A DNA stretch of 14,924 nucleotides from a virus. Below the pieces are notes generated by a model, which made no database searches, had not been told where the DNA came from, and saw only the letters and a program-made list of their open reading frames with translations. Both the position numbers and the translations under genes were made by a program. Shown here piece after piece: positions 4,262-14,920 of the stretch (position 1 is the stretch's first letter; each line of letters starts with the position of its first letter). Where the stretch lies: UHGV virus genome UHGV-0149279. The stretch is one strand, 5' to 3'.

Positions 4262-5116
4262 TCAGTCCCTCGCCCATGACGGGATTTCAGTCTGGCCATA
4301 GTCCTTGCCAGCGAAGTTCTCGGATACGCGAGTCTGATTGCGGGCTGGCTGCTTGATGCCTTTCGGTTCAAACAATCCCTGCCAGCCGTTCGCAATGCTC
4401 TGGTTGATGATTTCTTCAGGCTGGTATCCGCTGCACTTGCAACGCTCAAGCAGGTTGATGGCCTGGGTTACCGTCTGCTGAGACTTAATCGGTTTCTTCA
4501 GGTCGCGACGATAATCGACCCATGACTTCCAGACTGAAACTGACAGCCATTCAGGAAGGTCAACACCAGCCGGATCGAACGAAGCCGGTTTGGGGGATTT
4601 AGGGGGTTTATTAATATTGTCTTTATTGTCTTTTGTATGTTTGTCTTTTGTGTTTACCTTATTTGGGTAAGTGTCGTTACCTGATTCGGGTAAACATTCC
4701 TTACCTGATTCAGGTAAATTTACCTCTTTCAGGTAACGTTTATTTTCATTACCTGTTTTTGGTAATTTCACCCATTCACTAACCGTTTTGTTAATGCCGA
4801 CAGAACGCCCGATTTGGGTAAATACTCCACGCTTCACTAACGAGCTTTTAGCAGCAGAGCATTTGTGCGGAAGAATGCCGGTGAGGGCAGATAACTGATC
4901 GTTACTAACCCAGTCAGCTTTTTTGTTGAAACCGTATGTTTTACGCATTACAGCCATGAAGACCAGCAACTGATGCTGAGACAATCCAGCCAGCATGACA
5001 GCCTCCAGAAGTTCATTGGCAATACGCGTATAGCCATCATCAAGATCTGCCACGCGCGGCTCCACGACCTGCAAATCAGGCCTGATTGGTGAGATATTGT
5101 TAATTGCTAAGTTCAT
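4262..5116 (-). CDS. O: replication initiation protein O
   Basis: N-terminus [20 protein letters not shown]...RKTYGFNK matches recalled lambda O ([19 protein letters not shown]...RKTYGWNK). Preferred ATG at 5116 with GGGGAGG RBS (track start 5200). Internal iterons, see repeat feature. Confidence 0.85.
4654..4765. repeat. replication origin iterons: five 17-bp repeats TTACC-N7-GGTAA, with adjacent AT-rich tract at about 4600-4653
   Basis: Copies at about 4654-4670, 4677-4693, 4701-4717, 4720-4736, 4749-4765 (TTACCTTATTTGGGTAA, TTACCTGATTCGGGTAA, TTACCTGATTCAGGTAA, TTACCTCTTTCAGGTAA, TTACCTGTTTTTGGTAA), inside the O coding sequence as in ori-lambda. Coordinates +/-1. Confidence 0.6.
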
Positions 5117-5294
5117 CAGCAGCCTCCCCGCCTTTCTTGAAGATGATTTCGACACAAAGCAGAATGCAGTTATCGCAGATAGCAACGCCTGGACCGGCAA
5201 CTATGGTTTTCACGTCGCTATCGATATTGCTTCTGTCGCAGAAAGAGCATTTATGAGTTGCGTGCTGATTTGCCTTTTCGTTTATTACTGGCAT
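5100..5294 (-). CDS. small ClpX-type C4 zinc-finger (ZBD-like) protein, about 64 aa
   Basis: [28 protein letters not shown] = C-x2-C-x21-C-x2-C with the internal GP, matching the ClpX N-terminal zinc-binding domain pattern (recalled CSFCGK...GP.VYICDEC). Preferred ATG at 5294 with GGGAG RBS (track start 5321 is GTG). 3' end overlaps O start. Confidence 0.55.
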
Positions 5295-5379: not shown

Positions 5380-5925
5380 TCACATGACCCCCAACATCGA
5401 AGTGACCATCGTCATCAGCGGGCCTACCTGCTCCGGCATGAGGCGGAACAGCGACGCTATACCCTCGCTTACCTCTTTCAGCTTCTGATGCTCTGGAGCG
5501 TCCAGCAGCACAGCCTGTTTAGCTTCGGCACACTCTTTCATCGCAGAGGCGATCAGAGACATCGTGTCGTTCTGCGGCGCCAGGCGGTTGCGGTACTCCA
5601 GCGGAAGGACCGACATGATTGCTGGCGCCAGCTGGCGAATGTTGTTGGCGGCGTATTCGGTGTCGCCATCAATCCAGCGAAACACTTTCTGCATCTGGCG
5701 GTGCGAGTCAGTCGGGATATCCAGACCGGTTCCGCCGGACGCCCGCCACTCTTCAACAATCAGCGCTGCGACAAATTCACGGCTGCGGCAGTCAGCTGCC
5801 CAGGCCCGAACAGCTGCGCGGATCCCATCGATGTTTAACGCCGTGGAATCAGGTTCCCGGCGATTCTGGTAAATCATCGCCGCTGGCGAAAATTTGTTAC
5901 CTTGTTGATACGCAAGTGAATGCAT
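5380..5925 (-). CDS. YdaT-like protein (Rac-type, occupies the cII position)
   Basis: Immediately downstream of the cro-like gene. Central segment VFRWIDGDTEYAANNIRQLAPAIMSVLPLEYRNRL resembles my recollection of Rac YdaT; similarity is from memory only. RBS GGGAAAG. Confidence 0.45.
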   Translation of the reverse strand: MHSLAYQQGNKFSPAAMIYQNRREPDSTALNIDGIRAAVRAWAADCRSREFVAALIVEEWRASGGTGLDIPTDSHRQMQKVFRWIDGDTEYAANNIRQLAPAIMSVLPLEYRNRLAPQNDTMSLIASAMKECAEAKQAVLLDAPEHQKLKEVSEGIASLFRLMPEQVGPLMTMVTSMLGVM

Positions 5926-5955: not shown

Positions 5956-6201
5956 TCAGGCGGCTGTCGATTCATTTTTAATTCGGTCAGGGTTTGCAGC
6001 CTGTAGTAGCCACTCTGCCGTAAACTGCCCTTTTGATGCGTCAGCCAAAAGCTGTGAATAGTTGGTTTTCTCTGTGTACTCAGTGCGAGGCAACGCCGCG
6101 TTCTTTACCCACTTGTGAATAGCAACATTCGACAGACCACATAGGCGTGCCGCTGCGGTTTGTCCGCCTACAGCTTCGATTGCAAATTGCATTGGGTTCA
6201 T
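5956..6201 (-). CDS. Cro-like HTH regulator (YdaS family)
   Basis: 81 aa, divergent from cI; AVGGQTAAARLCGLSNVAIHKW fits the YdaS/Cro-type HTH pattern (A..GGQ.A.ARL.G.S...V..W). Confidence 0.65.
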   Translation of the reverse strand: MNPMQFAIEAVGGQTAAARLCGLSNVAIHKWVKNAALPRTEYTEKTNYSQLLADASKGQFTAEWLLQAANPDRIKNESTAA

Positions 6202-6285: not shown

Positions 6286-7053
6286 ATGGTTAAAAAAGAC
6301 GATTTAAAAGAAGAATTCTCGAAGAGACTTCGCGCTGCATTGCTTGATGCTGGCGTGGGTGGGCGTGGGCAGGCTGGCAGGATCAGGGAAGCTATGAAGT
6401 CCCAAGGGATTGCTGTATCTGAGCCCGGGATCTGGAAGTGGCTTAACGCATCAGCAATACCAGACCAAACCAATATCCTTGCACTTAGCCGCTGGCTTGG
6501 GGTTCGCCCTGAGTGGCTGGAATACGGAAGGAATGATCCTGAACCTGAACTGCACAGGGTATCATCCATCCCGCCTGAATCTGAGTGGGGAACTGTCGAC
6601 GCTTGGGACAAAAATACCCCCCTACCTGACGATGAGGTGGAAGTACCGTTTCTGAAGGATATCGAGTTTGCGTGTGGTGATGGGCGTGTTCATAGCGAAG
6701 ATCATAACGGCTTTAAACTGAGGTTCTCCAAGGCAACGCTCAGAAGGGTGGGTGCAAATAGTGATGGTTCTGGAGTGCTTTGCTTTCCCGCTTCTGGTGA
6801 CAGCATGGAGCCCGTTATTCCTGACGGCGCAACGGTAGCAGTCGATACAGGCAACAAGCGGATTATTGACGGCGAACTCTATGCTATTAACCAGGGCGAT
6901 TTAAAGCGCATAAAGCAGCTTTATCGAAAGCCTGGTGGGAAGCTATTAATACGAAGCATCAATCGCGATTATGACGATGAAGAGGCTGATGAGGCAGATG
7001 TCGAGATAATCGGTTTTGTGTTCTGGTACTCGGTATTGCGATATCGCCGATAA
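6286..7053 (+). CDS. cI: CI-type prophage repressor (N-terminal HTH, C-terminal S24 LexA-like peptidase domain)
   Basis: C-terminal GDSMEP (Ser nucleophile) and downstream DLKRIKQLY (Lys) as in LexA/CI autocleaving repressors; N-terminal HTH-like region; divergent from cro-like gene. Confidence 0.85.
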   Translation: MVKKDDLKEEFSKRLRAALLDAGVGGRGQAGRIREAMKSQGIAVSEPGIWKWLNASAIPDQTNILALSRWLGVRPEWLEYGRNDPEPELHRVSSIPPESEWGTVDAWDKNTPLPDDEVEVPFLKDIEFACGDGRVHSEDHNGFKLRFSKATLRRVGANSDGSGVLCFPASGDSMEPVIPDGATVAVDTGNKRIIDGELYAINQGDLKRIKQLYRKPGGKLLIRSINRDYDDEEADEADVEIIGFVFWYSVLRYRR

Positions 7054-7319: not shown

Positions 7320-7799
7320 ATGGATAAAATTAATTACCCACCCCTGTTTGAGCCAGGGCTCCATGACATGGATGAAGCTGGATTAAAATCGTATTGTGTC
7401 GATTGCTTTCCTTCATCATCCAGGCGAGGCATGCTATACTGTAATTTTATACAGCTACTCGAATCTATTCGAGAATTATCTGCTCAATATGGCTGTTTTA
7501 CAGAAATATGGGTTGATGGTTCATACACCACGTCTAAACCAGAGCCTGATGATATTGATATTTTGTTGGTATGTGACTATAGCAATATAAACTCAATACC
7601 TGTCATGCTTCGGGGCCGCGTCGATAATTTGCTTGACCGAAACTACATCAAACAAAACTACAAAATTGATGTCCTACTACTCATGAAGAATTTAGATGAC
7701 CCTAACTATGATTATGAGTACTGGCGTAGCTACTGGCGCGGTTGGTTTGGTTTTGATCGCAGTGAAAACCCGAAAGGGTTAGTGAGGATTTTTTTATGA
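7320..7799 (+). CDS. minimal nucleotidyltransferase-fold (Pol-beta superfamily-like) protein, 159 aa
   Basis: FTEIWVDGSYTTSKPEPDDIDILLV fits hG[GS]-x9-D-x-D-h (compare generic MNT LFGSYARGEATEDSDIDLLV); third acidic residue in a hydrophobic strand at KIDVLLL. AT-rich (roughly 35-42% GC by eye versus above 50% in flanks). RBS AAGG. Family assignment is motif-based inference. Confidence 0.5.
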   Translation: MDKINYPPLFEPGLHDMDEAGLKSYCVDCFPSSSRRGMLYCNFIQLLESIRELSAQYGCFTEIWVDGSYTTSKPEPDDIDILLVCDYSNINSIPVMLRGRVDNLLDRNYIKQNYKIDVLLLMKNLDDPNYDYEYWRSYWRGWFGFDRSENPKGLVRIFL

Positions 7800-8728
7800 A
7801 TGATAAATCAATGTTTAAAAATTGCGATAAACGCATTGATTTCATTCAAAAAGAAGTCGATGCAATGAAGCAAAACAAAACCAGGTCCTTTGCTGACATG
7901 CTTCTTTATCGCTCCATGGATTCTCATCTGAGCGATTTGAAGGCCGAAAAATTAAAGCAAGATAGTCGGCACCCACTTATCGATTTTTTTGAGCTGCGGC
8001 TGAAAGGCTCTGAGGTTGACTTTGGCTCTATTCCTTTAGAGCTGCTTGGGGCTATTTCAACAAATCTTGCAGCGCTAATACAAAGAGCAACACACAAAAT
8101 TGCCTCAGGCAAGGACTCAAAAAAAGTTCCCTACGACGTGAAAAGCTCCTTAAACCTCAGGCTGGCTGATTTATCCCCTGGGTCTACAAAATTGGGCGTC
8201 ACCTTCTCTACAGGAATAGCAGAATTAGTAGAAACAGTACCCAGCAAGGCTGTAAAAGGCATATTCGATTTGTTGTTAAGCGATGACGACAACAACTTCA
8301 TGAATCACGTCGCTGAAATTGGATACAATTCCACTGTAAGCCTTAAGAGAATCGTAGAGGAATGCGATAAACACAACTTAACATTTGATGCAAGTTGGAC
8401 CGGTCCATTTAGTAATGGCACCAAGGTGGCAACTATTGACTCCAATAAAATTAAGTACTTGGTGAGTAGACTTACATCAACCATTTCATCCCCTCCCATT
8501 ACTGAAACGGTTACAGGCGAACTGGTCGTTCTATCCAAATATGGGAAGCTGGAGCTTGATGTTGGTGGTGAACATTTAAAGGCTTCCTATCCGATTGAAA
8601 TGCTAGATTTAATACAAAAAAAACACAAGGTCGGACAGATTGTTTCTCTTTTAGTGGAGACTACTGAGATTCACAATGATCGCATAGGTCTGTACCGTAA
8701 AAACCATCTTGTTAAATCGGTTCTTTAA
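7796..8728 (+). CDS. hypothetical protein, 310 aa, translationally coupled to the upstream NTase-like gene
   Basis: ATGA overlap with upstream stop; AT-rich; no motif I can assign (one R-x4-H match, RSMDSH, near the N-terminus is not sufficient to call HEPN). Confidence 0.6.
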   Translation: MNDKSMFKNCDKRIDFIQKEVDAMKQNKTRSFADMLLYRSMDSHLSDLKAEKLKQDSRHPLIDFFELRLKGSEVDFGSIPLELLGAISTNLAALIQRATHKIASGKDSKKVPYDVKSSLNLRLADLSPGSTKLGVTFSTGIAELVETVPSKAVKGIFDLLLSDDDNNFMNHVAEIGYNSTVSLKRIVEECDKHNLTFDASWTGPFSNGTKVATIDSNKIKYLVSRLTSTISSPPITETVTGELVVLSKYGKLELDVGGEHLKASYPIEMLDLIQKKHKVGQIVSLLVETTEIHNDRIGLYRKNHLVKSVL

Positions 8729-8735
8729 TATCTCA

Positions 8736-8759
8736 CCCGGCCACCGCGCCGGGTTTTTT
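8736..8759 (+). terminator. rho-independent terminator after the cassette
   Basis: CCCGGC-caccgc-GCCGGG stem-loop followed by TTTTTT, starting 8 nt after the stop at 8726-8728. Confidence 0.7.
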
Positions 8760-8843: not shown

Positions 8844-8868
8844 GCCCGCCCGTGCGGGCTTTTTTATT
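8844..8868 (+). terminator. second plus-strand rho-independent terminator
   Basis: GCCCGC-ccgt-GCGGGC followed by TTTTTTATT; overlaps the 3' end of the convergent minus-strand ORF 8864..9061. Confidence 0.55.
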
Positions 8869-9061
8869 GTCCTTTCCGCACTATCTCAGCTGCATCCCTG
8901 TTCACACCCTTACCTATCACGTTTCCCGTTTCCTTCCGGTACCGTTCCAGCTTGTCGATGATGTTTTGCTGGGTCATAGGTAAATCTGCCAGTGACAACT
9001 CCATGACCGCCCGCCCCATGGCGTGAACCATCATGTTCACTCTTTCTTCATTCAAGCCCAT
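8864..9061 (-). CDS. small hypothetical protein (65 aa), convergent with the cassette
   Basis: Strong RBS AAGGAG about 8 nt upstream of the ATG on the minus strand (reverse complement of 9062-9075); no recognised motif. Confidence 0.5.
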   Translation of the reverse strand: MGLNEERVNMMVHAMGRAVMELSLADLPMTQQNIIDKLERYRKETGNVIGKGVNRDAAEIVRKGQ

Positions 9062-9169
9062 TACCCACTCCTTTTTGATGTTTTTTTCAGCATATCACAT
9101 GCCAAGCAAATCTATAACCAAACCAAATTAACCAATAAATCATAACCTTAATAACCAACACAGAAATAA

Positions 9170-9212
9170 TTAACCATTGGTTATTGACCGAAAATAACCA
9201 TTAGTTAATAAT
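9170..9212 (+). promoter_or_regulatory. pL-like promoter with two OL-like operators
   Basis: -35 TTGACC 9184-9189, 17-bp spacer, -10 AATAAT 9207-9212. Palindromes with the same TTAAC-N5-GTTAA architecture as OR: TTAACCATTGGTTAT 9170-9184 and ATAACCATTAGTTAA 9194-9208. More TAACC repeats upstream (9110-9160). Confidence 0.5.
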
Positions 9213-9625
9213 CAACCCATCGAAACGAAACATCGACAGCTGAGCGAAGTTAGCCAGCGGCGGACAGCAAGTCGCCTGCTTTTTAACAACATGCAGATTT
9301 ACAGCGTCAATGACCTGTTAAGACCCCTACACGTAAACGTGCTGTATCACCGGGTGCGATCCGGTCGGTGAGAGAGTATCCCCGCGCGAGAGCGAGAACG
9401 GCGTGAGAACGGGCAACACTGGCAGGGAGTTGGCGCTGACCAATACAGGGAATGTTATGGGATGTGGTGAAGGGTTCATGGACGGGAATATGTCGCACGT
9501 AAAGCGGCGAGGCCCGAGGAGCTATTGCCGAAGATAAGTAGGCCGAATCGGGTCGAAATGGGTCTCCCACCTACCACATCGCCAAAGCATTTCTCCCGCA
9601 TCAGCGGGTAACGACAGAGGGTTTT

Positions 9626-9910
9626 ATGGCAGACGACGATTATACGATGGCCGAGTTTTGGCGAGACATGAAGCCAGAACTTAAAGAGCGGCGCAGGATA
9701 GCGCGCAACTCGGCACATGAAGGGGTGAAGGCATTCTTTCAGCGTAATGGCGTTGAGTTCGAAGAGGGAGAGAACACCCTCATATTTCGCACGCCGCAAG
9801 GGACTGTTGTTTATTACCCGCCAAGCAAGCGGATGCAGCATAAAACCACATGGCGAACATGCAGCCCTACAGCGTGCATGAATTACGTCAACAAACTCAT
9901 GGCCGCCTAA
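9626..9910 (+). CDS. hypothetical phage protein (94 aa)
   Basis: RBS AGAGGG upstream of ATG; first ORF of the rightward arm after a roughly 410-bp leader. No recognised domain. Confidence 0.5.
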   Translation: MADDDYTMAEFWRDMKPELKERRRIARNSAHEGVKAFFQRNGVEFEEGENTLIFRTPQGTVVYYPPSKRMQHKTTWRTCSPTACMNYVNKLMAA

Positions 9911-9923
9911 CCAGCGGCTTTTT
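9902..9923 (+). terminator. weak candidate terminator overlapping the stop of the 9626..9910 gene
   Basis: GCCGC-ctaacca-GCGGC followed by TTTTT; 5-bp stem only. Confidence 0.3.
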
Positions 9924-10058
9924 CATACCTGGAGTCATTTACGAGTGGCTCAAGTTATGACAACCGGCGGCCATCCACCGCCCATTGAAACACTGAATAA
10001 ATGCGTTGAAGTCTTGTATTAACCGTTCCGTTCGCCGCGATAAGGCCAAGAGGAAATC

Positions 10059-13486: not shown

Positions 13487-13684
13487 ATGGATGATATTTT
13501 GGTAACGTCAGACCTGACCAGTCGCTACAAAATTTCACGCAAAACCCTTTGGTCATGGCAAAGTGCAGACACAATGCCTCGGGGCTTCGTATGCCCGTTC
13601 CCACCCCCTGACTGGCCCGGCAACCCTAACCGCTGGCGCTCTGAGTCAATCAAAGAGTGGGAGGATAAAAAGAAGATAAATTAA
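13487..13684 (+). CDS. xis: AlpA-family excisionase / transcriptional regulator
   Basis: [22 protein letters not shown]...GFVCPFPPP....[11 protein letters not shown] matches the AlpA/Xis HTH pattern; preferred ATG at 13487 with GGAGAG RBS (track start 13442 is TTG); overlaps the convergent integrase 3' end. Confidence 0.65.
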
Positions 13685-14874
13685 CTGAAGGGCTCTCCGA
13701 TGATCTCTTCAAGATGGCTCTGCCAAACGCGGAGCCAGTGTTTCTGATCATCGATATAGTCATGAAGGTTGTAATGCGCCATAACCCCCACCATCTGATG
13801 CCCGAGCAGCTTTTCAATTACGTGCGGCGGGCAACCTAACTCAGAGAGATTTGTGGCTATCGTCCGCCTCATATCATGAAGCGACCACTCTGCCATACCT
13901 GTTCCATTCCAAATAGAACGGGCGTAATTGGATGCCACAGGTGAATGAACGGGCGAATCTTTGATCCCGCCATCAATTTTACGTTGTGAAGTCACCAGGT
14001 GATTGGTGTTTATTTTCTTGAGGTGATTTCTGACCAGGTTAACGGCGGCGTCTGAGAGTCCCCTTCTAATATGTACCCGAGTTTTATAACTGCCCGCAGG
14101 CACGACCCACTCATTATCATCCAATCGAAACCATGATCTCTCACTAAGTCGAATCTCAGCCGTACGGCATCCGGTAAGCATAATAAATTTCACCAGGAAT
14201 ACGGACTCTATCGACATATGGCTTTTCAACCACTGATAGATTTTGCGCAGATCGTCATCGTCCATCCTGCGAGTTCTCTTTTTAGGCTTTTGCCCGACAT
14301 CAGATGGCAGTAATCCCTCGAGTGGGTTTGAGGCGATCACACTTCTGTTAACGCAGAACCTAAACGCCCGTTTGCACAGCGAAAGCATGTAATGAGCCAT
14401 CACCCTGCTTTCTATAGAATCGAAGACGTTGATCCAGTGCATTTTCGCTGTGTTATCGACTTTGACATTCTTCATCGGTTCGGCGATATGTTTCTCAAAC
14501 ACCTGGCGATAGTAATCGACTTTAACTAGCCCGTTAGCGATACAGTGCCTTTCAATCCAGTAATTGAACGCTTCGGCAACGGACATCGCTTCCTGTCGGG
14601 TCTGCTTATCCAGCTTCACCTGCTCTCGCGGATCCAGTCCCTCAGTTAACCAGTTTCTGAATTGTTGGCGACGCTCTCTTGCCTGGGTGATACTCATTGC
14701 AGGATAATCACCAACATTGAGTTTTACCGCTTTACCGGCCCAGCGATACCGATAGAAAAATGATATTTTTCCGGCCTGGCTGATTCTGGCGTTGAGCCCG
14801 TGCGAATCAGAAATAATCTCGATATCATCTCTTTTCTTGCCGAGCGCCTTCCTGAGCTTTGTGTCGGTGATCAT
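13681..14874 (-). CDS. int: tyrosine integrase, P4-like family
   Basis: N-terminal [11 protein letters not shown]...[18 protein letters not shown] and C-terminal HDMRRT...LLGHQ...AHYNL (R/H-x-x-R/Y catalytic signature). Track start 14919 is GTG; internal ATGs at 14889 and 14874, neither with a clear SD, so the start is uncertain. Confidence 0.9.
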
Positions 14875-14879
14875 TGAAT

Positions 14880-14920
14880 GGGTACACATTTTTGTTTTTG
14901 GGTACACAAAAGTGTACACA
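14880..14920. repeat. three direct repeats G(G/T)GTACACA at 14880-14888, 14900-14908, 14912-14920 upstream of / overlapping the int 5' end
   Basis: Seen in sequence; core GTGTACAC is self-complementary. Window ends at 14924, so the array may continue. Confidence 0.45.

What the first reader, a model, noticed from the sequence alone, without database searches (positions are those of the whole stretch)
9213..9625. Roughly 410-bp ORF-free, GC-rich leader downstream of the pL-like promoter, with no N-like gene
Between the candidate pL and the first plus-strand gene (9626) I find no plus-strand ORF longer than about 26 codons; the only long frames are on the minus strand, overlap each other and lack RBSs. 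No arginine-rich N-like protein is apparent. The region contains several short hairpins (for example CCCGC-atca-GCGGG near 9595-9608). It may encode a cis-acting antitermination RNA (put-like, as in HK022), a nut site for a trans-encoded factor, or an sRNA. I could not identify boxA/boxB by eye.
Basis: inference. Interest (0 to 1): 0.45.

Follow-up and report, generated by a model that had tools for sequence, protein, structure and literature searches.

The report
Phage φ80-type early leader RNA, N gene missing
The stretch is the untranslated start of a prophage's early-left transcript, base-for-base the same as phage φ80's known anti-termination (nutL) leader. It folds into a conserved RNA found in many related phages, yet here, as in most of them, the partner N gene is absent.

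Summary
Window 9213-9625 lies just downstream of a good sigma-70 promoter (pL; -35 at 9184, -10 at 9207) and carries no conserved gene.

- **Identity:** bases 9217-9622 (406 nt) match the φ80 pL-N leader without a mismatch. GenBank annotates that leader as nutL.
- **RNA modules:** the leader is a chain of three small 5' hairpins, an rRNA-type boxA (9277-9289), a multi-helix domain (~9304-9436), a long hairpin (9447-9593), and a small hairpin plus Shine-Dalgarno (9595-9621).
- **Support for the fold:** 76 distinct homologues show strong compensatory changes. Rfam has no match.
- **N is missing:** the 94-aa gene at 9626 replaces φ80 N exactly. It is not an N analogue, because in other genomes it sits downstream of real N genes.
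- **N is rarely present elsewhere:** of 84 loci carrying the element, only 6 have φ80-type N. N-less viable phages (HK225; TL-2011c/P13374-type Stx2 phages) also carry it.
- **Single copy:** the window and the whole φ80 genome each hold one copy, with no nutR/putR-like twin.

**Best reading:** a cis-acting anti-termination leader that uses boxA and host Nus factors plus a phage-specific RNA domain, and that probably works without N in this prophage. It is not a member of the put family. Function is inferred, not shown.

The parts
9184..9212 (+). pL promoter: -35 TTGACC 9184-9189 and -10 AATAAT 9207-9212. Inferred transcription start near A9219. Overlaps palindromic operators of the TAACCA..TGGTTA type.
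   Evidence: Consensus scan, 10 of 12 matches. Aligns with the annotated φ80 pL hexamers. The operator DNA differs from φ80, so the immunity type is different.
9217..9622 (+). The whole untranslated pL leader: 406 nt with zero mismatches to the φ80 pL-N leader (JX871397 33202-32797, the reverse-complement strand of the record).
   Evidence: Pairwise alignment and run analysis. M11919 annotates the equivalent of window 9240-9517 as 'nutL regulatory signal'.
9220..9276 (+). Module A: three small 5' hairpins (9220-9223/9233-9236; 9239-9245/9253-9258 with loop GAAGUUA; 9259-9263/9272-9276). The module is also found at the 5' end of the HK639, HK225, CobraSix and KO-TP1 leaders.
   Evidence: Local blastn. 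By eye in alignment A3, the stems stay paired in the variant sequences L108, L066 and L135. The third hairpin was also picked up by the terminator scan.
9277..9289 (+). boxA, TGCTTTTTAACAA. It differs at one position from the rRNA-operon boxA TGCTCTTTAACAA. PA2/TL-2011c-type homologues carry the exact rRNA form.
   Evidence: Annotated in φ80. Pattern match with 0 mismatches, the only one on this strand near a promoter. Nearly invariant across 76 homologues. The rRNA consensus sequence is from established knowledge.
9304..9436 (+). Conserved multi-helix RNA domain: outer helix 9304-9311/9429-9436 (weaker support); P0 9315-9319/9421-9425; P1 9325-9327/9411-9413; these enclose hairpins H1, H2 and H3.
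   Evidence: 76 distinct homologues, MAFFT alignment A3. 94.3% of cells paired against 32-45% when the partners are slid. 16 pairs changed on both sides against 2-7 when slid. 0 of 500 shuffles reach the observed score. RNAalifold independently finds P0, P1 and H2. Covariance model R1 scores 197 bits here.
9330..9341 (+). H1, a boxB-like hairpin CACG-UAAA-CGUG (the φ80 'nutL core'). The stem covaries (CACG/CGUG, CACA/UGUG, CGCA/UGCG). The A-rich loop varies (UAAA, AAAA, AGAAA, CAAA, AAUG). The 5' arm can alternatively pair with 9403-9405.
9342..9376 (+). H2, a long hairpin with the nearly invariant core CACCGGGYGCGAUCCGGUCGGUG (9348-9370). PA2-type sequences carry the compensated form CAUCGG..CGAUG. 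The basal pairs covary strongly.
   Evidence: This core served as the search pattern that recovered 90 true homologues in IMG/VR and 14 species genomes.
9382..9401 (+). H3, a hairpin with a GAGA tetraloop: inner stem CGC/GCG and outer stem CCG/CGG, with a 3' bulge AGAA. In some homologues an unrelated hairpin takes its place.
   Evidence: Compensatory changes CGC/GCG to CCC/GGG, G-C to U-A and C-G to A-U.
9447..9593 (+). Module C: a long irregular hairpin that ends just before the linker. The core 9458-9587 is 91-95% identical to the segment that ends 18 nt before the N start codon in HK97, and to equivalent segments in 933W-type Stx phage records and a Citrobacter prophage.
   Evidence: Fold z = -2.3. 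The closing helix keeps complementarity with different sequence in the HK97 type (by eye).
9595..9621 (+). Linker D: hairpin CCCGC-AUCA-GCGGG (9595-9608) plus Shine-Dalgarno GAGGG (9617-9621). The same unit recurs between early-left genes in many phages. It forms the left edge of the N-cassette swap (9622/9623).
9626..9910 (+). 94-aa gene occupying the φ80 N slot. It is a conserved hypothetical protein and not an N analogue.
   Evidence: No BLASTP similarity to φ80 N. No Pfam or PHROG match. 20 homologues; in Pectobacterium, Cronobacter and Citrobacter the gene lies 1-5 genes downstream of genuine N genes (PF25694, PF11438). AF2 model: helix, three strands, helix; pLDDT 68.
9901..9924 (+). Intrinsic terminator tL1A (stem 9901-9919, then a T run). 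This is the first terminator the pL transcript must read through. Identity to φ80 resumes here (9902).

Best explanation
The region is the ~405-nt untranslated leader of the early-left (pL) transcript of a φ80-like lambdoid prophage. It acts as RNA, in cis.

Proposed order of events:
1. After the transcript start (~9219), three small hairpins form.
2. An rRNA-type boxA (9277-9289) emerges and binds host NusB/NusE(S10). With NusA and NusG this tethers the RNA to RNA polymerase.
3. The conserved multi-helix domain (9304-9436; boxB-like H1, invariant H2, GNRA-capped H3) folds and supplies the phage-specific part of the complex.
4. The modified polymerase resists Rho over the long untranslated leader. 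It then reads through tL1A (9901-9924) into the kil/gam/recT/exo genes.
5. The long hairpin (9447-9593) and the small hairpin plus SD (9595-9621) sit next to the first gene's ribosome-binding site and probably set its translation or processing.

In φ80 the first gene is N, and the leader is annotated as its nutL site. In this prophage the N cassette has been exchanged for an unrelated 94-aa gene, between linker D and tL1A. So the leader here must work without N, or with a factor supplied in trans.

Shown: identity to φ80, the modular anatomy, the conserved fold, the absence of N, and the single copy. Inferred: Nus binding, anti-termination, and independence from N.
For: - 406 of 406 identity to the φ80 pL-N leader, with GenBank nutL, boxA and nut-core annotations.
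- boxA is nearly invariant across homologues, and in many it is the exact rRNA form. NusB binds rrn BoxA about 17-fold more tightly than lambda nutL BoxA (PMC2800207). Nus factors can block Rho-dependent termination without N (PMC5725501).
- The fold is supported by covariation. Only the plus strand folds better than shuffles: z = -1.98 against +0.73.
- An intrinsic terminator follows the first gene directly.
- In HK639 the same 5' module A is followed by the annotated putL-like antiterminator, in the slot where this leader has boxA plus the domain. That is positional equivalence.
- The element occurs with at least 40 unrelated first genes. φ80-type N follows it in only 6 of 84 loci.
- HK225 carries the element (192 bits) and has no N annotated. 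TL-2011c and PA2 carry it, and P13374-type Stx2 phages are reported to lack N (PMC4122784).
Against: - No experiment bears on this prophage, and the original φ80 papers could not be read here.
- Classical N/nut and put systems have a second site in the pR operon. None exists in the window or in φ80.
- rRNA-type Nus complexes are known to counter Rho, not intrinsic terminators such as tL1A.
- The first-gene calls are heuristic, and novel N-like proteins could be hidden among the unknowns.
- This prophage may simply be defective.
Confidence: 0.6

Rival explanations
1. Orphaned nut site. The leader is strictly N-dependent, as annotated for φ80. Replacing N has left this prophage unable to anti-terminate, so it is defective or depends on a co-resident φ80-type N. 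The leader then has no function of its own here.
For: φ80 annotation of N and nutL. N is absent from the window. The prophage is highly mosaic: no complete E. coli genome covers more than 61% of the window.
Against: The leader is intact to the last base, and the element is conserved with compensatory changes in about 90 contigs. Most of these lack φ80-type N. Plaque-forming or inducible phages carry it without a recognised N (PMC4122784).
Confidence: 0.2
2. Post-transcriptional control element. The structured leader mainly sets stability, RNase III processing or translation of the first gene, in the manner of the lambda N-leader hairpin. It does not modify RNA polymerase.
For: Module C is a long irregular helix that ends next to the ribosome-binding site. 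It is shared with HK97-type (and 933W-type Stx phage) leaders, where it lies just upstream of N in HK97. Linker D puts a hairpin beside the SD.
Against: The conserved core (boxA plus domain) lies 190-350 nt from the start codon. It is combined with many different C modules and first genes. A near-consensus boxA is not explained by translation control alone.
Confidence: 0.1
3. A trans-acting or decoy RNA. This would be an abundant early RNA that binds a host or defence protein, or an sRNA processed from the leader.
For: It is the first RNA made after induction. The H2 core is invariant, as expected for a protein-binding site. There is only one copy per genome.
Against: No terminator or processing signal defines a short RNA. 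The hairpin at 9259-9276 followed by a U run is really boxA, and the U run is not conserved. No Rfam match. No paper in the library contains the core sequence.
Confidence: 0.07
4. A protein-coding gene is hidden in the region, on either strand.
For: Mechanical ORFs exist: 44 aa GTG-started on the plus strand; 87, 50 and 121 aa on the minus strand.
Against: The ORFs overlap one another. The one tested (the 87-aa minus-strand ORF) has no family match. Its frame is broken by stops in 60 of 75 homologues and shifted by indels in 32 of 75. Substitutions follow RNA pairing rather than codon periodicity.
Confidence: 0.03

Closest known systems
Phage φ80 pL-N leader / nutL (GenBank M11919; JX871397 'nutL boxA', 'nutL core')
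   Same: Identical sequence over 406 nt. Same promoter position, same boxA and same core hairpin. The same terminator tL1A follows the first gene.
   Different: The operators differ, so the immunity type is different. The N gene itself is replaced by an unrelated 94-aa gene. The φ80 annotation marks only boxA and a 12-nt core, whereas the conserved fold spans about 130 nt.
Lambda nutL (boxA-boxB, N-dependent, with nutR twin)
   Same: A boxA followed by a small hairpin with an A-rich loop, in the leader of the pL transcript and upstream of a terminator.
   Different: - boxA is of the rRNA type rather than the weaker lambda type.
- The hairpin lies 40 nt from boxA (9289 to 9330). In lambda the spacer is much shorter (from memory).
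- The hairpin is embedded in a multi-helix domain.
- There is no N gene and no nutR.
HK022 / HK639 put RNAs (protein-independent antiterminator RNAs)
   Same: A structured RNA in the pL leader of N-less lambdoid phages. In HK639 the put-like RNA occupies the same slot, after the shared 5' module A.
   Different: put is about 70 nt, has two stem-loops, starts at +3 and has L and R copies (PMC9378689). This element starts near +58 (boxA) to +86, is a multi-helix junction preceded by boxA, and is single copy. The covariance model does not hit HK639.
rRNA operon leader antiterminator (boxB-boxA-boxC; NusB/E/A/G, SuhB)
   Same: Near-consensus boxA preceded by a hairpin. It lies ahead of a long untranslated, highly structured RNA. 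The system is N-independent (PMC5725501, PMC2800207).
   Different: No boxC-like GU-rich element is evident after boxA. A phage-specific domain follows instead. rRNA-type complexes are not known to defeat intrinsic terminators.
Lambda N-leader RNase III hairpin; H-19B NUT with alternative structures (both recalled from memory, not tested)
   Same: Module C is a long helix between the nut region and the first gene's SD. The 5' arm of H1 has two mutually exclusive, conserved partners.
   Different: No sequence similarity was tested or seen. RNase III cleavage is untested.

Membership tests
N/nut antitermination site (lambda-type nutL) | boxA sequence in the pL leader | tested here: met
   TGCTTTTTAACAA at 9277-9289. 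It is annotated as boxA in φ80 and nearly invariant in 76 homologues.
N/nut antitermination site (lambda-type nutL) | boxB hairpin with a purine-rich loop close downstream of boxA | tested here: inconclusive
   H1 (9330-9341) is a covarying 4-bp stem with an A-rich loop. However, it lies 40 nt from boxA and forms part of a larger junction. Its loop type does not track the downstream gene.
N/nut antitermination site (lambda-type nutL) | Cognate N protein encoded in the same phage (normally the first pL gene) | tested here: not met
   No N family on any ORF. tblastn with 8 N proteins is negative. The first gene is unrelated to φ80 N and elsewhere lies downstream of real N genes.
N/nut antitermination site (lambda-type nutL) | Second site (nutR) in the pR operon | tested here: not met
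   The covariance model with filters off finds one copy in the window and one in the whole φ80 genome. The pR-operon strand has no boxA-like or H1-like match. Only about 6 kb of the pR operon is in the window.
φ80 nutL leader (sequence family) | Sequence identity with the annotated φ80 nutL region | tested here: met
   406 of 406 nt. R1 scores 197 bits in both.
put RNA (HK022 type) | About 70 nt with two stem-loops, beginning at the transcript start | tested here: not met
   The structure is a multi-helix junction of about 110-130 nt that starts about 85-95 nt downstream of the inferred start, after boxA. The put description comes from PMC9378689.
put RNA (HK022 type) | Paired putL and putR copies | tested here: not met
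   Single copy.
put RNA (HK022 type) | Similarity to a known put-like RNA | tested here: not met
   No blastn or covariance-model match to the annotated HK639 putL-like RNA. Only the flanking modules A and D are shared.
put RNA (HK022 type) | Acts through the RNA polymerase beta' zinc-binding domain without protein factors | not testable with these tools
   Needs rpoC mutants or in vitro transcription.
rRNA-type Nus-factor antitermination | Consensus boxA | tested here: met
   12 of 13 matches to TGCTCTTTAACAA here, and 13 of 13 in PA2/TL-2011c-type homologues. The consensus is from established knowledge.
rRNA-type Nus-factor antitermination | boxC (GU-rich) after boxA; dependence on NusB/E and SuhB | not tested
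   No obvious boxC by eye. Factor dependence needs genetics.
Any Rfam family | Score at or above the gathering threshold | tested here: not met
   0 hits at gathering thresholds over the whole window. At E <= 10 over 9150-9700 only three chance-level hits (12.8-18.7 bits), far below their gathering scores of 50-95 bits.

The most novel reading that the evidence does not exclude
The boxA plus multi-helix domain is a self-sufficient, N-independent processive antiterminator RNA. It would be a third kind beside N/nut and put. It would combine an rRNA-type Nus-loading site with a polymerase- or Nus-binding RNA domain, and serve the pL operons of many N-less lambdoid phages. These include HK225 and the TL-2011c/P13374-type Stx2 phages of the O104:H4 outbreak lineage. 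On this reading, φ80 'N' is an accessory first-gene cassette rather than the essential partner.
Probability: 0.3. Interest if true: 0.8.

Novelty: new variant of a known kind. Interest (0 to 1): 0.5.

Why it matters
- **How N-less lambdoid phages express early genes.** This is an open point, and it covers clinically important Stx2 phages reported to lack N. A conserved, easily mutated RNA element in their pL leader makes the question directly testable with reporter fusions.
- **A correction to the φ80 annotation.** The φ80 'nutL' appears to be a roughly 160-nt modular RNA shared across Enterobacterales prophages. It is largely uncoupled from φ80 N, and no RNA family currently describes it.
- **For this window alone the result is more ordinary.** The finding is a known phage leader whose N gene was swapped out.

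Tried and rejected
- **Rfam:** nothing at gathering thresholds (whole window) or in permissive mode over 9150-9700.
- **Protein-coding reading:** rejected.
- **The 94-aa gene as a divergent N.** I first saw a faint N-terminal resemblance to φ80 N and an Arg-rich stretch, KERRRIARN. I rejected the idea for three reasons: BLASTP finds nothing; its homologues lie downstream of real N genes; and the AF2 model is a folded helix-sheet-helix, though only pLDDT 68. The PDB fold search gave no meaningful match.
- **put membership:** rejected.
- **A nutR/putR-like second copy:** searched for with a covariance model with filters off, and with boxA and H1 patterns. None was found.
- **The hairpin at 9259-9276 plus U run as an attenuator:** rejected, because the U run is boxA itself and is not conserved as a U run in homologues.
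- **A tRNA T-loop-like reading of the H2 apex:** considered by eye and dropped, because the required stem does not form and the key U varies. ARAGORN finds no tRNA or tmRNA.
- **Correlation between H1 loop type and first-gene family:** none seen.
- **Literature:** Rotman 2012 (φ80 genome) and King 2011 (put-like RNAs) are not held. The original 1985 φ80 N/nutL paper could not be consulted. No held paper contains the H2 core sequence.
- **Whole-window search of complete E. coli genomes:** this showed only mosaic partial matches.

Full report
**Context.** The window is the immunity and early region of a lambdoid prophage.
- Minus strand: a CII-like/YdaT gene (5380-5925) and a Cro-like gene (5956-6201).
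- Plus strand: an S24 CI repressor (6286-7053) and two accessory genes (7320-8728) ending in strong terminators.
- Then a small divergent ORF (8864-9061, minus strand) and an AT-rich operator region.
- Then the plus-strand early-left operon: a 94-aa gene, DUF1482, a 323-aa gene, RecT, a YqaJ exonuclease and DUF4060.
- Finally a convergent integrase.

**Observation.** The 410 bp between pL and the ATG at 9626 has no conserved coding frame.
- The longest ATG-started plus-strand ORF is 26 codons. A 44-codon GTG ORF and a 28-codon TTG ORF also exist.
- The minus-strand frames overlap one another. The longest (87 aa) is interrupted by stops in 60 of 75 homologous sequences and frame-shifted in 32 of 75.
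- GC content is 55% against 51% for the whole window, so the leader is only mildly GC-rich. The RNA is G-rich (C/G = 0.8).
- The hairpin at 9595-9608 is as described.

**Identity.** Megablast against phage records hits φ80.
- Window 9217-9622 is identical at all 406 positions to the φ80 DNA between pL and gene N.
- The operators (9099-9216) differ from φ80, and the N coding cassette (9623-9901) is replaced. Identity resumes at the φ80 terminator tL1A (9902 onward).
- JX871397 annotates 'nutL boxA' (= window 9277-9285) and 'nutL core' (= 9330-9341). M11919 annotates a 278-bp 'nutL regulatory signal' (= 9240-9517).

**The N slot.**
- The 94-aa protein at 9626-9910 has no Pfam or PHROG family and no BLASTP similarity to φ80 N.
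- It has about 20 homologues in Citrobacter, Enterobacter, Cronobacter and Pectobacterium.
- In those genomes it lies one to five genes downstream of genuine N genes (PF25694 or PF11438). It is therefore an ordinary early-left cassette gene, not an N analogue.
- Its AF2 model is helix, three strands, helix at modest confidence, with no PDB match.
- tblastn with eight N proteins finds nothing in the window.
- φ80 N itself forms an isolated family (phrog_25091, no Pfam).

**Modular anatomy.** Local blastn against fetched loci resolves four modules.
- **A (9214-9262):** also found in HK639, HK225, CobraSix and KO-TP1.
- **B (9277 to about 9464):** begins exactly at boxA. It is present in TL-2011c/PA2-type Stx phages, HK225 and KO-TP1, and at about 80% identity in Edwardsiella phage Edno5.
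- **C (9458-9587):** found in HK97 and in 933W-type Stx phage records. In HK97 it lies just upstream of N.
- **D (9582-9622):** a hairpin plus SD unit that recurs between early-left genes in many phages.

The same complete leader precedes three different first genes at the same junction: φ80 N, the 94-aa gene and a 165-aa gene. This points to cassette exchange at D and tL1A.

**A conserved structured RNA.**
- A scan of IMG/VR with the H2 core returned 120 loci, of which 90 are true homologues.
- 76 distinct sequences were aligned with MAFFT (A3).
- The structure I defined comprises P0, P1, the boxB-like H1, the nearly invariant H2 and the GNRA-capped H3.
- 94.3% of cells are paired, against 32-45% when the partners are slid.
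- 16 pairs carry changes on both sides, against 2-7 when slid.
- The covariation score is 0.162 against 0.013-0.061, and 0 of 500 shuffles reach it.
- RNAalifold independently recovers P0, P1 and H2.
- In some homologues H3 is replaced by an unrelated hairpin.
- The 5' arm of H1 can pair either locally or with 9403-9405, and both options are conserved.
- Only the plus strand folds better than shuffled sequence.
- Module C folds into a long helix (z = -2.3). Its closing strands stay complementary, with different sequence, in the HK97 type.
- Rfam has no match.

**Copy number and distribution.**
- A covariance model (R1) run with filters off finds one copy in the window (9276-9439, 197 bits) and one in the whole φ80 genome.
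- No boxA-like or H1-like sequence lies on the pR-operon strand.
- R1 does not hit the HK639 put-like locus, HK97, CobraSix, or the N-type prophages of Citrobacter, Cronobacter and Pectobacterium.
- The exact H2 core occurs in representative genomes of 14 species: Enterobacter, Kosakonia, Kluyvera, Citrobacter and Escherichia.

**Relation to N.**
- A first ORF could be called downstream of the element in 84 of 96 loci. These ORFs fall into at least 40 unrelated clusters, and φ80-type N accounts for only 6 loci (heuristic ORF calls).
- In PA2 and TL-2011c the first gene is a Rha/anti-repressor-like protein. P13374-type Stx2 phages are reported to lack N (PMC4122784).
- HK225, a φ80-like isolated phage, has Q annotated but no N.

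The element is therefore not tied to a particular protein partner encoded next to it.

**Mechanism (inference).**
- boxA is one base from the rRNA-operon consensus, and exactly that consensus in many homologues.
- NusB binds rrn BoxA much more tightly than lambda nut BoxA (PMC2800207). Nus factors can oppose Rho without N and can assist folding of downstream RNA (PMC5725501).
- A 400-nt untranslated leader needs such protection, and tL1A stands directly after the first gene.
- In HK639 the slot after module A holds the annotated put-like antiterminator, which suggests functional equivalence.

I therefore favour a cis-acting anti-termination leader: Nus loading at boxA plus a phage-specific RNA domain. 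It would be N-assisted in φ80 and probably N-independent here.

Three points weigh against this:
- There is no pR twin.
- rRNA-type complexes are not known to defeat intrinsic terminators.
- This mosaic prophage could be defective.

**Family comparison.**
- The leader is a member, by identity, of the φ80 nutL sequence family.
- It works like a nut site in layout, but it fails two defining nut features: a cognate N and a nutR.
- It fails all testable put features (PMC9378689).
- It resembles the rRNA leader in its boxA only.

**Verdict.** What is new:
- the extended conserved fold;
- its wide occurrence without N;
- the clean replacement of N in this prophage.

Interest is moderate. It would be high if N-independent anti-termination were demonstrated.

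Noticed in passing
window 8864-9061 (-): A 65-aa ORF (phrog_3975, function unknown) diverges from pL. Its DNA is near-identical in φ80, where no CDS is annotated. Small minus-strand genes, not compared with it by sequence, lie in the same position upstream of pL in HK225 (gp41) and HK639 (gene 46).
   Followed up: partly
window 9582-9622; also L004 3026-3054 and 3260-3283, L005 2692-2730, L009 1736-1776, L010 1943-1986: The hairpin CCCGC-AUCA-GCGGG plus SD unit recurs one to three times per locus between early-left genes. It looks like a recombination boundary sequence that lets gene cassettes, N included, be swapped.
   Followed up: partly
window 7320-8728 (+), terminators 8735-8754 and 8844-8859: A DUF6932 protein and an overlapping 310-aa protein (phrog_6603) sit in the rexAB-like slot after cI, followed by two strong intrinsic terminators. 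They are a candidate prophage exclusion or defence pair.
   Followed up: no
window 9330-9332 with 9339-9341 or 9403-9405: The 5' arm of the boxB-like hairpin has two mutually exclusive partners. Both stay paired across 76 homologues, which hints at alternative conformers of the leader RNA.
   Followed up: partly
window 4675-4745, inside the O-like gene 4262-5200 (-): Overlapping palindromic repeats of the GGTAA..TTACC type, probably the replication-origin iterons.
   Followed up: no
L005 (HK639) 2001-2198: HK639 shares the first ~50 nt of the leader (module A). It then carries its annotated putL-like RNA where this window has boxA plus the structured domain. These look like alternative anti-termination cassettes in one slot.
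   Followed up: partly
window 13681-14919 (-): A tyrosine integrase with an Arm-DNA-binding domain is convergent with the pL operon, the same orientation as int in φ80.
   Followed up: no
L009 (CobraSix) 1550-1735: In CobraSix about 186 nt of unrelated sequence lies between modules A and D. The covariance model does not hit it, so it may hold yet another leader RNA type.
   Followed up: no
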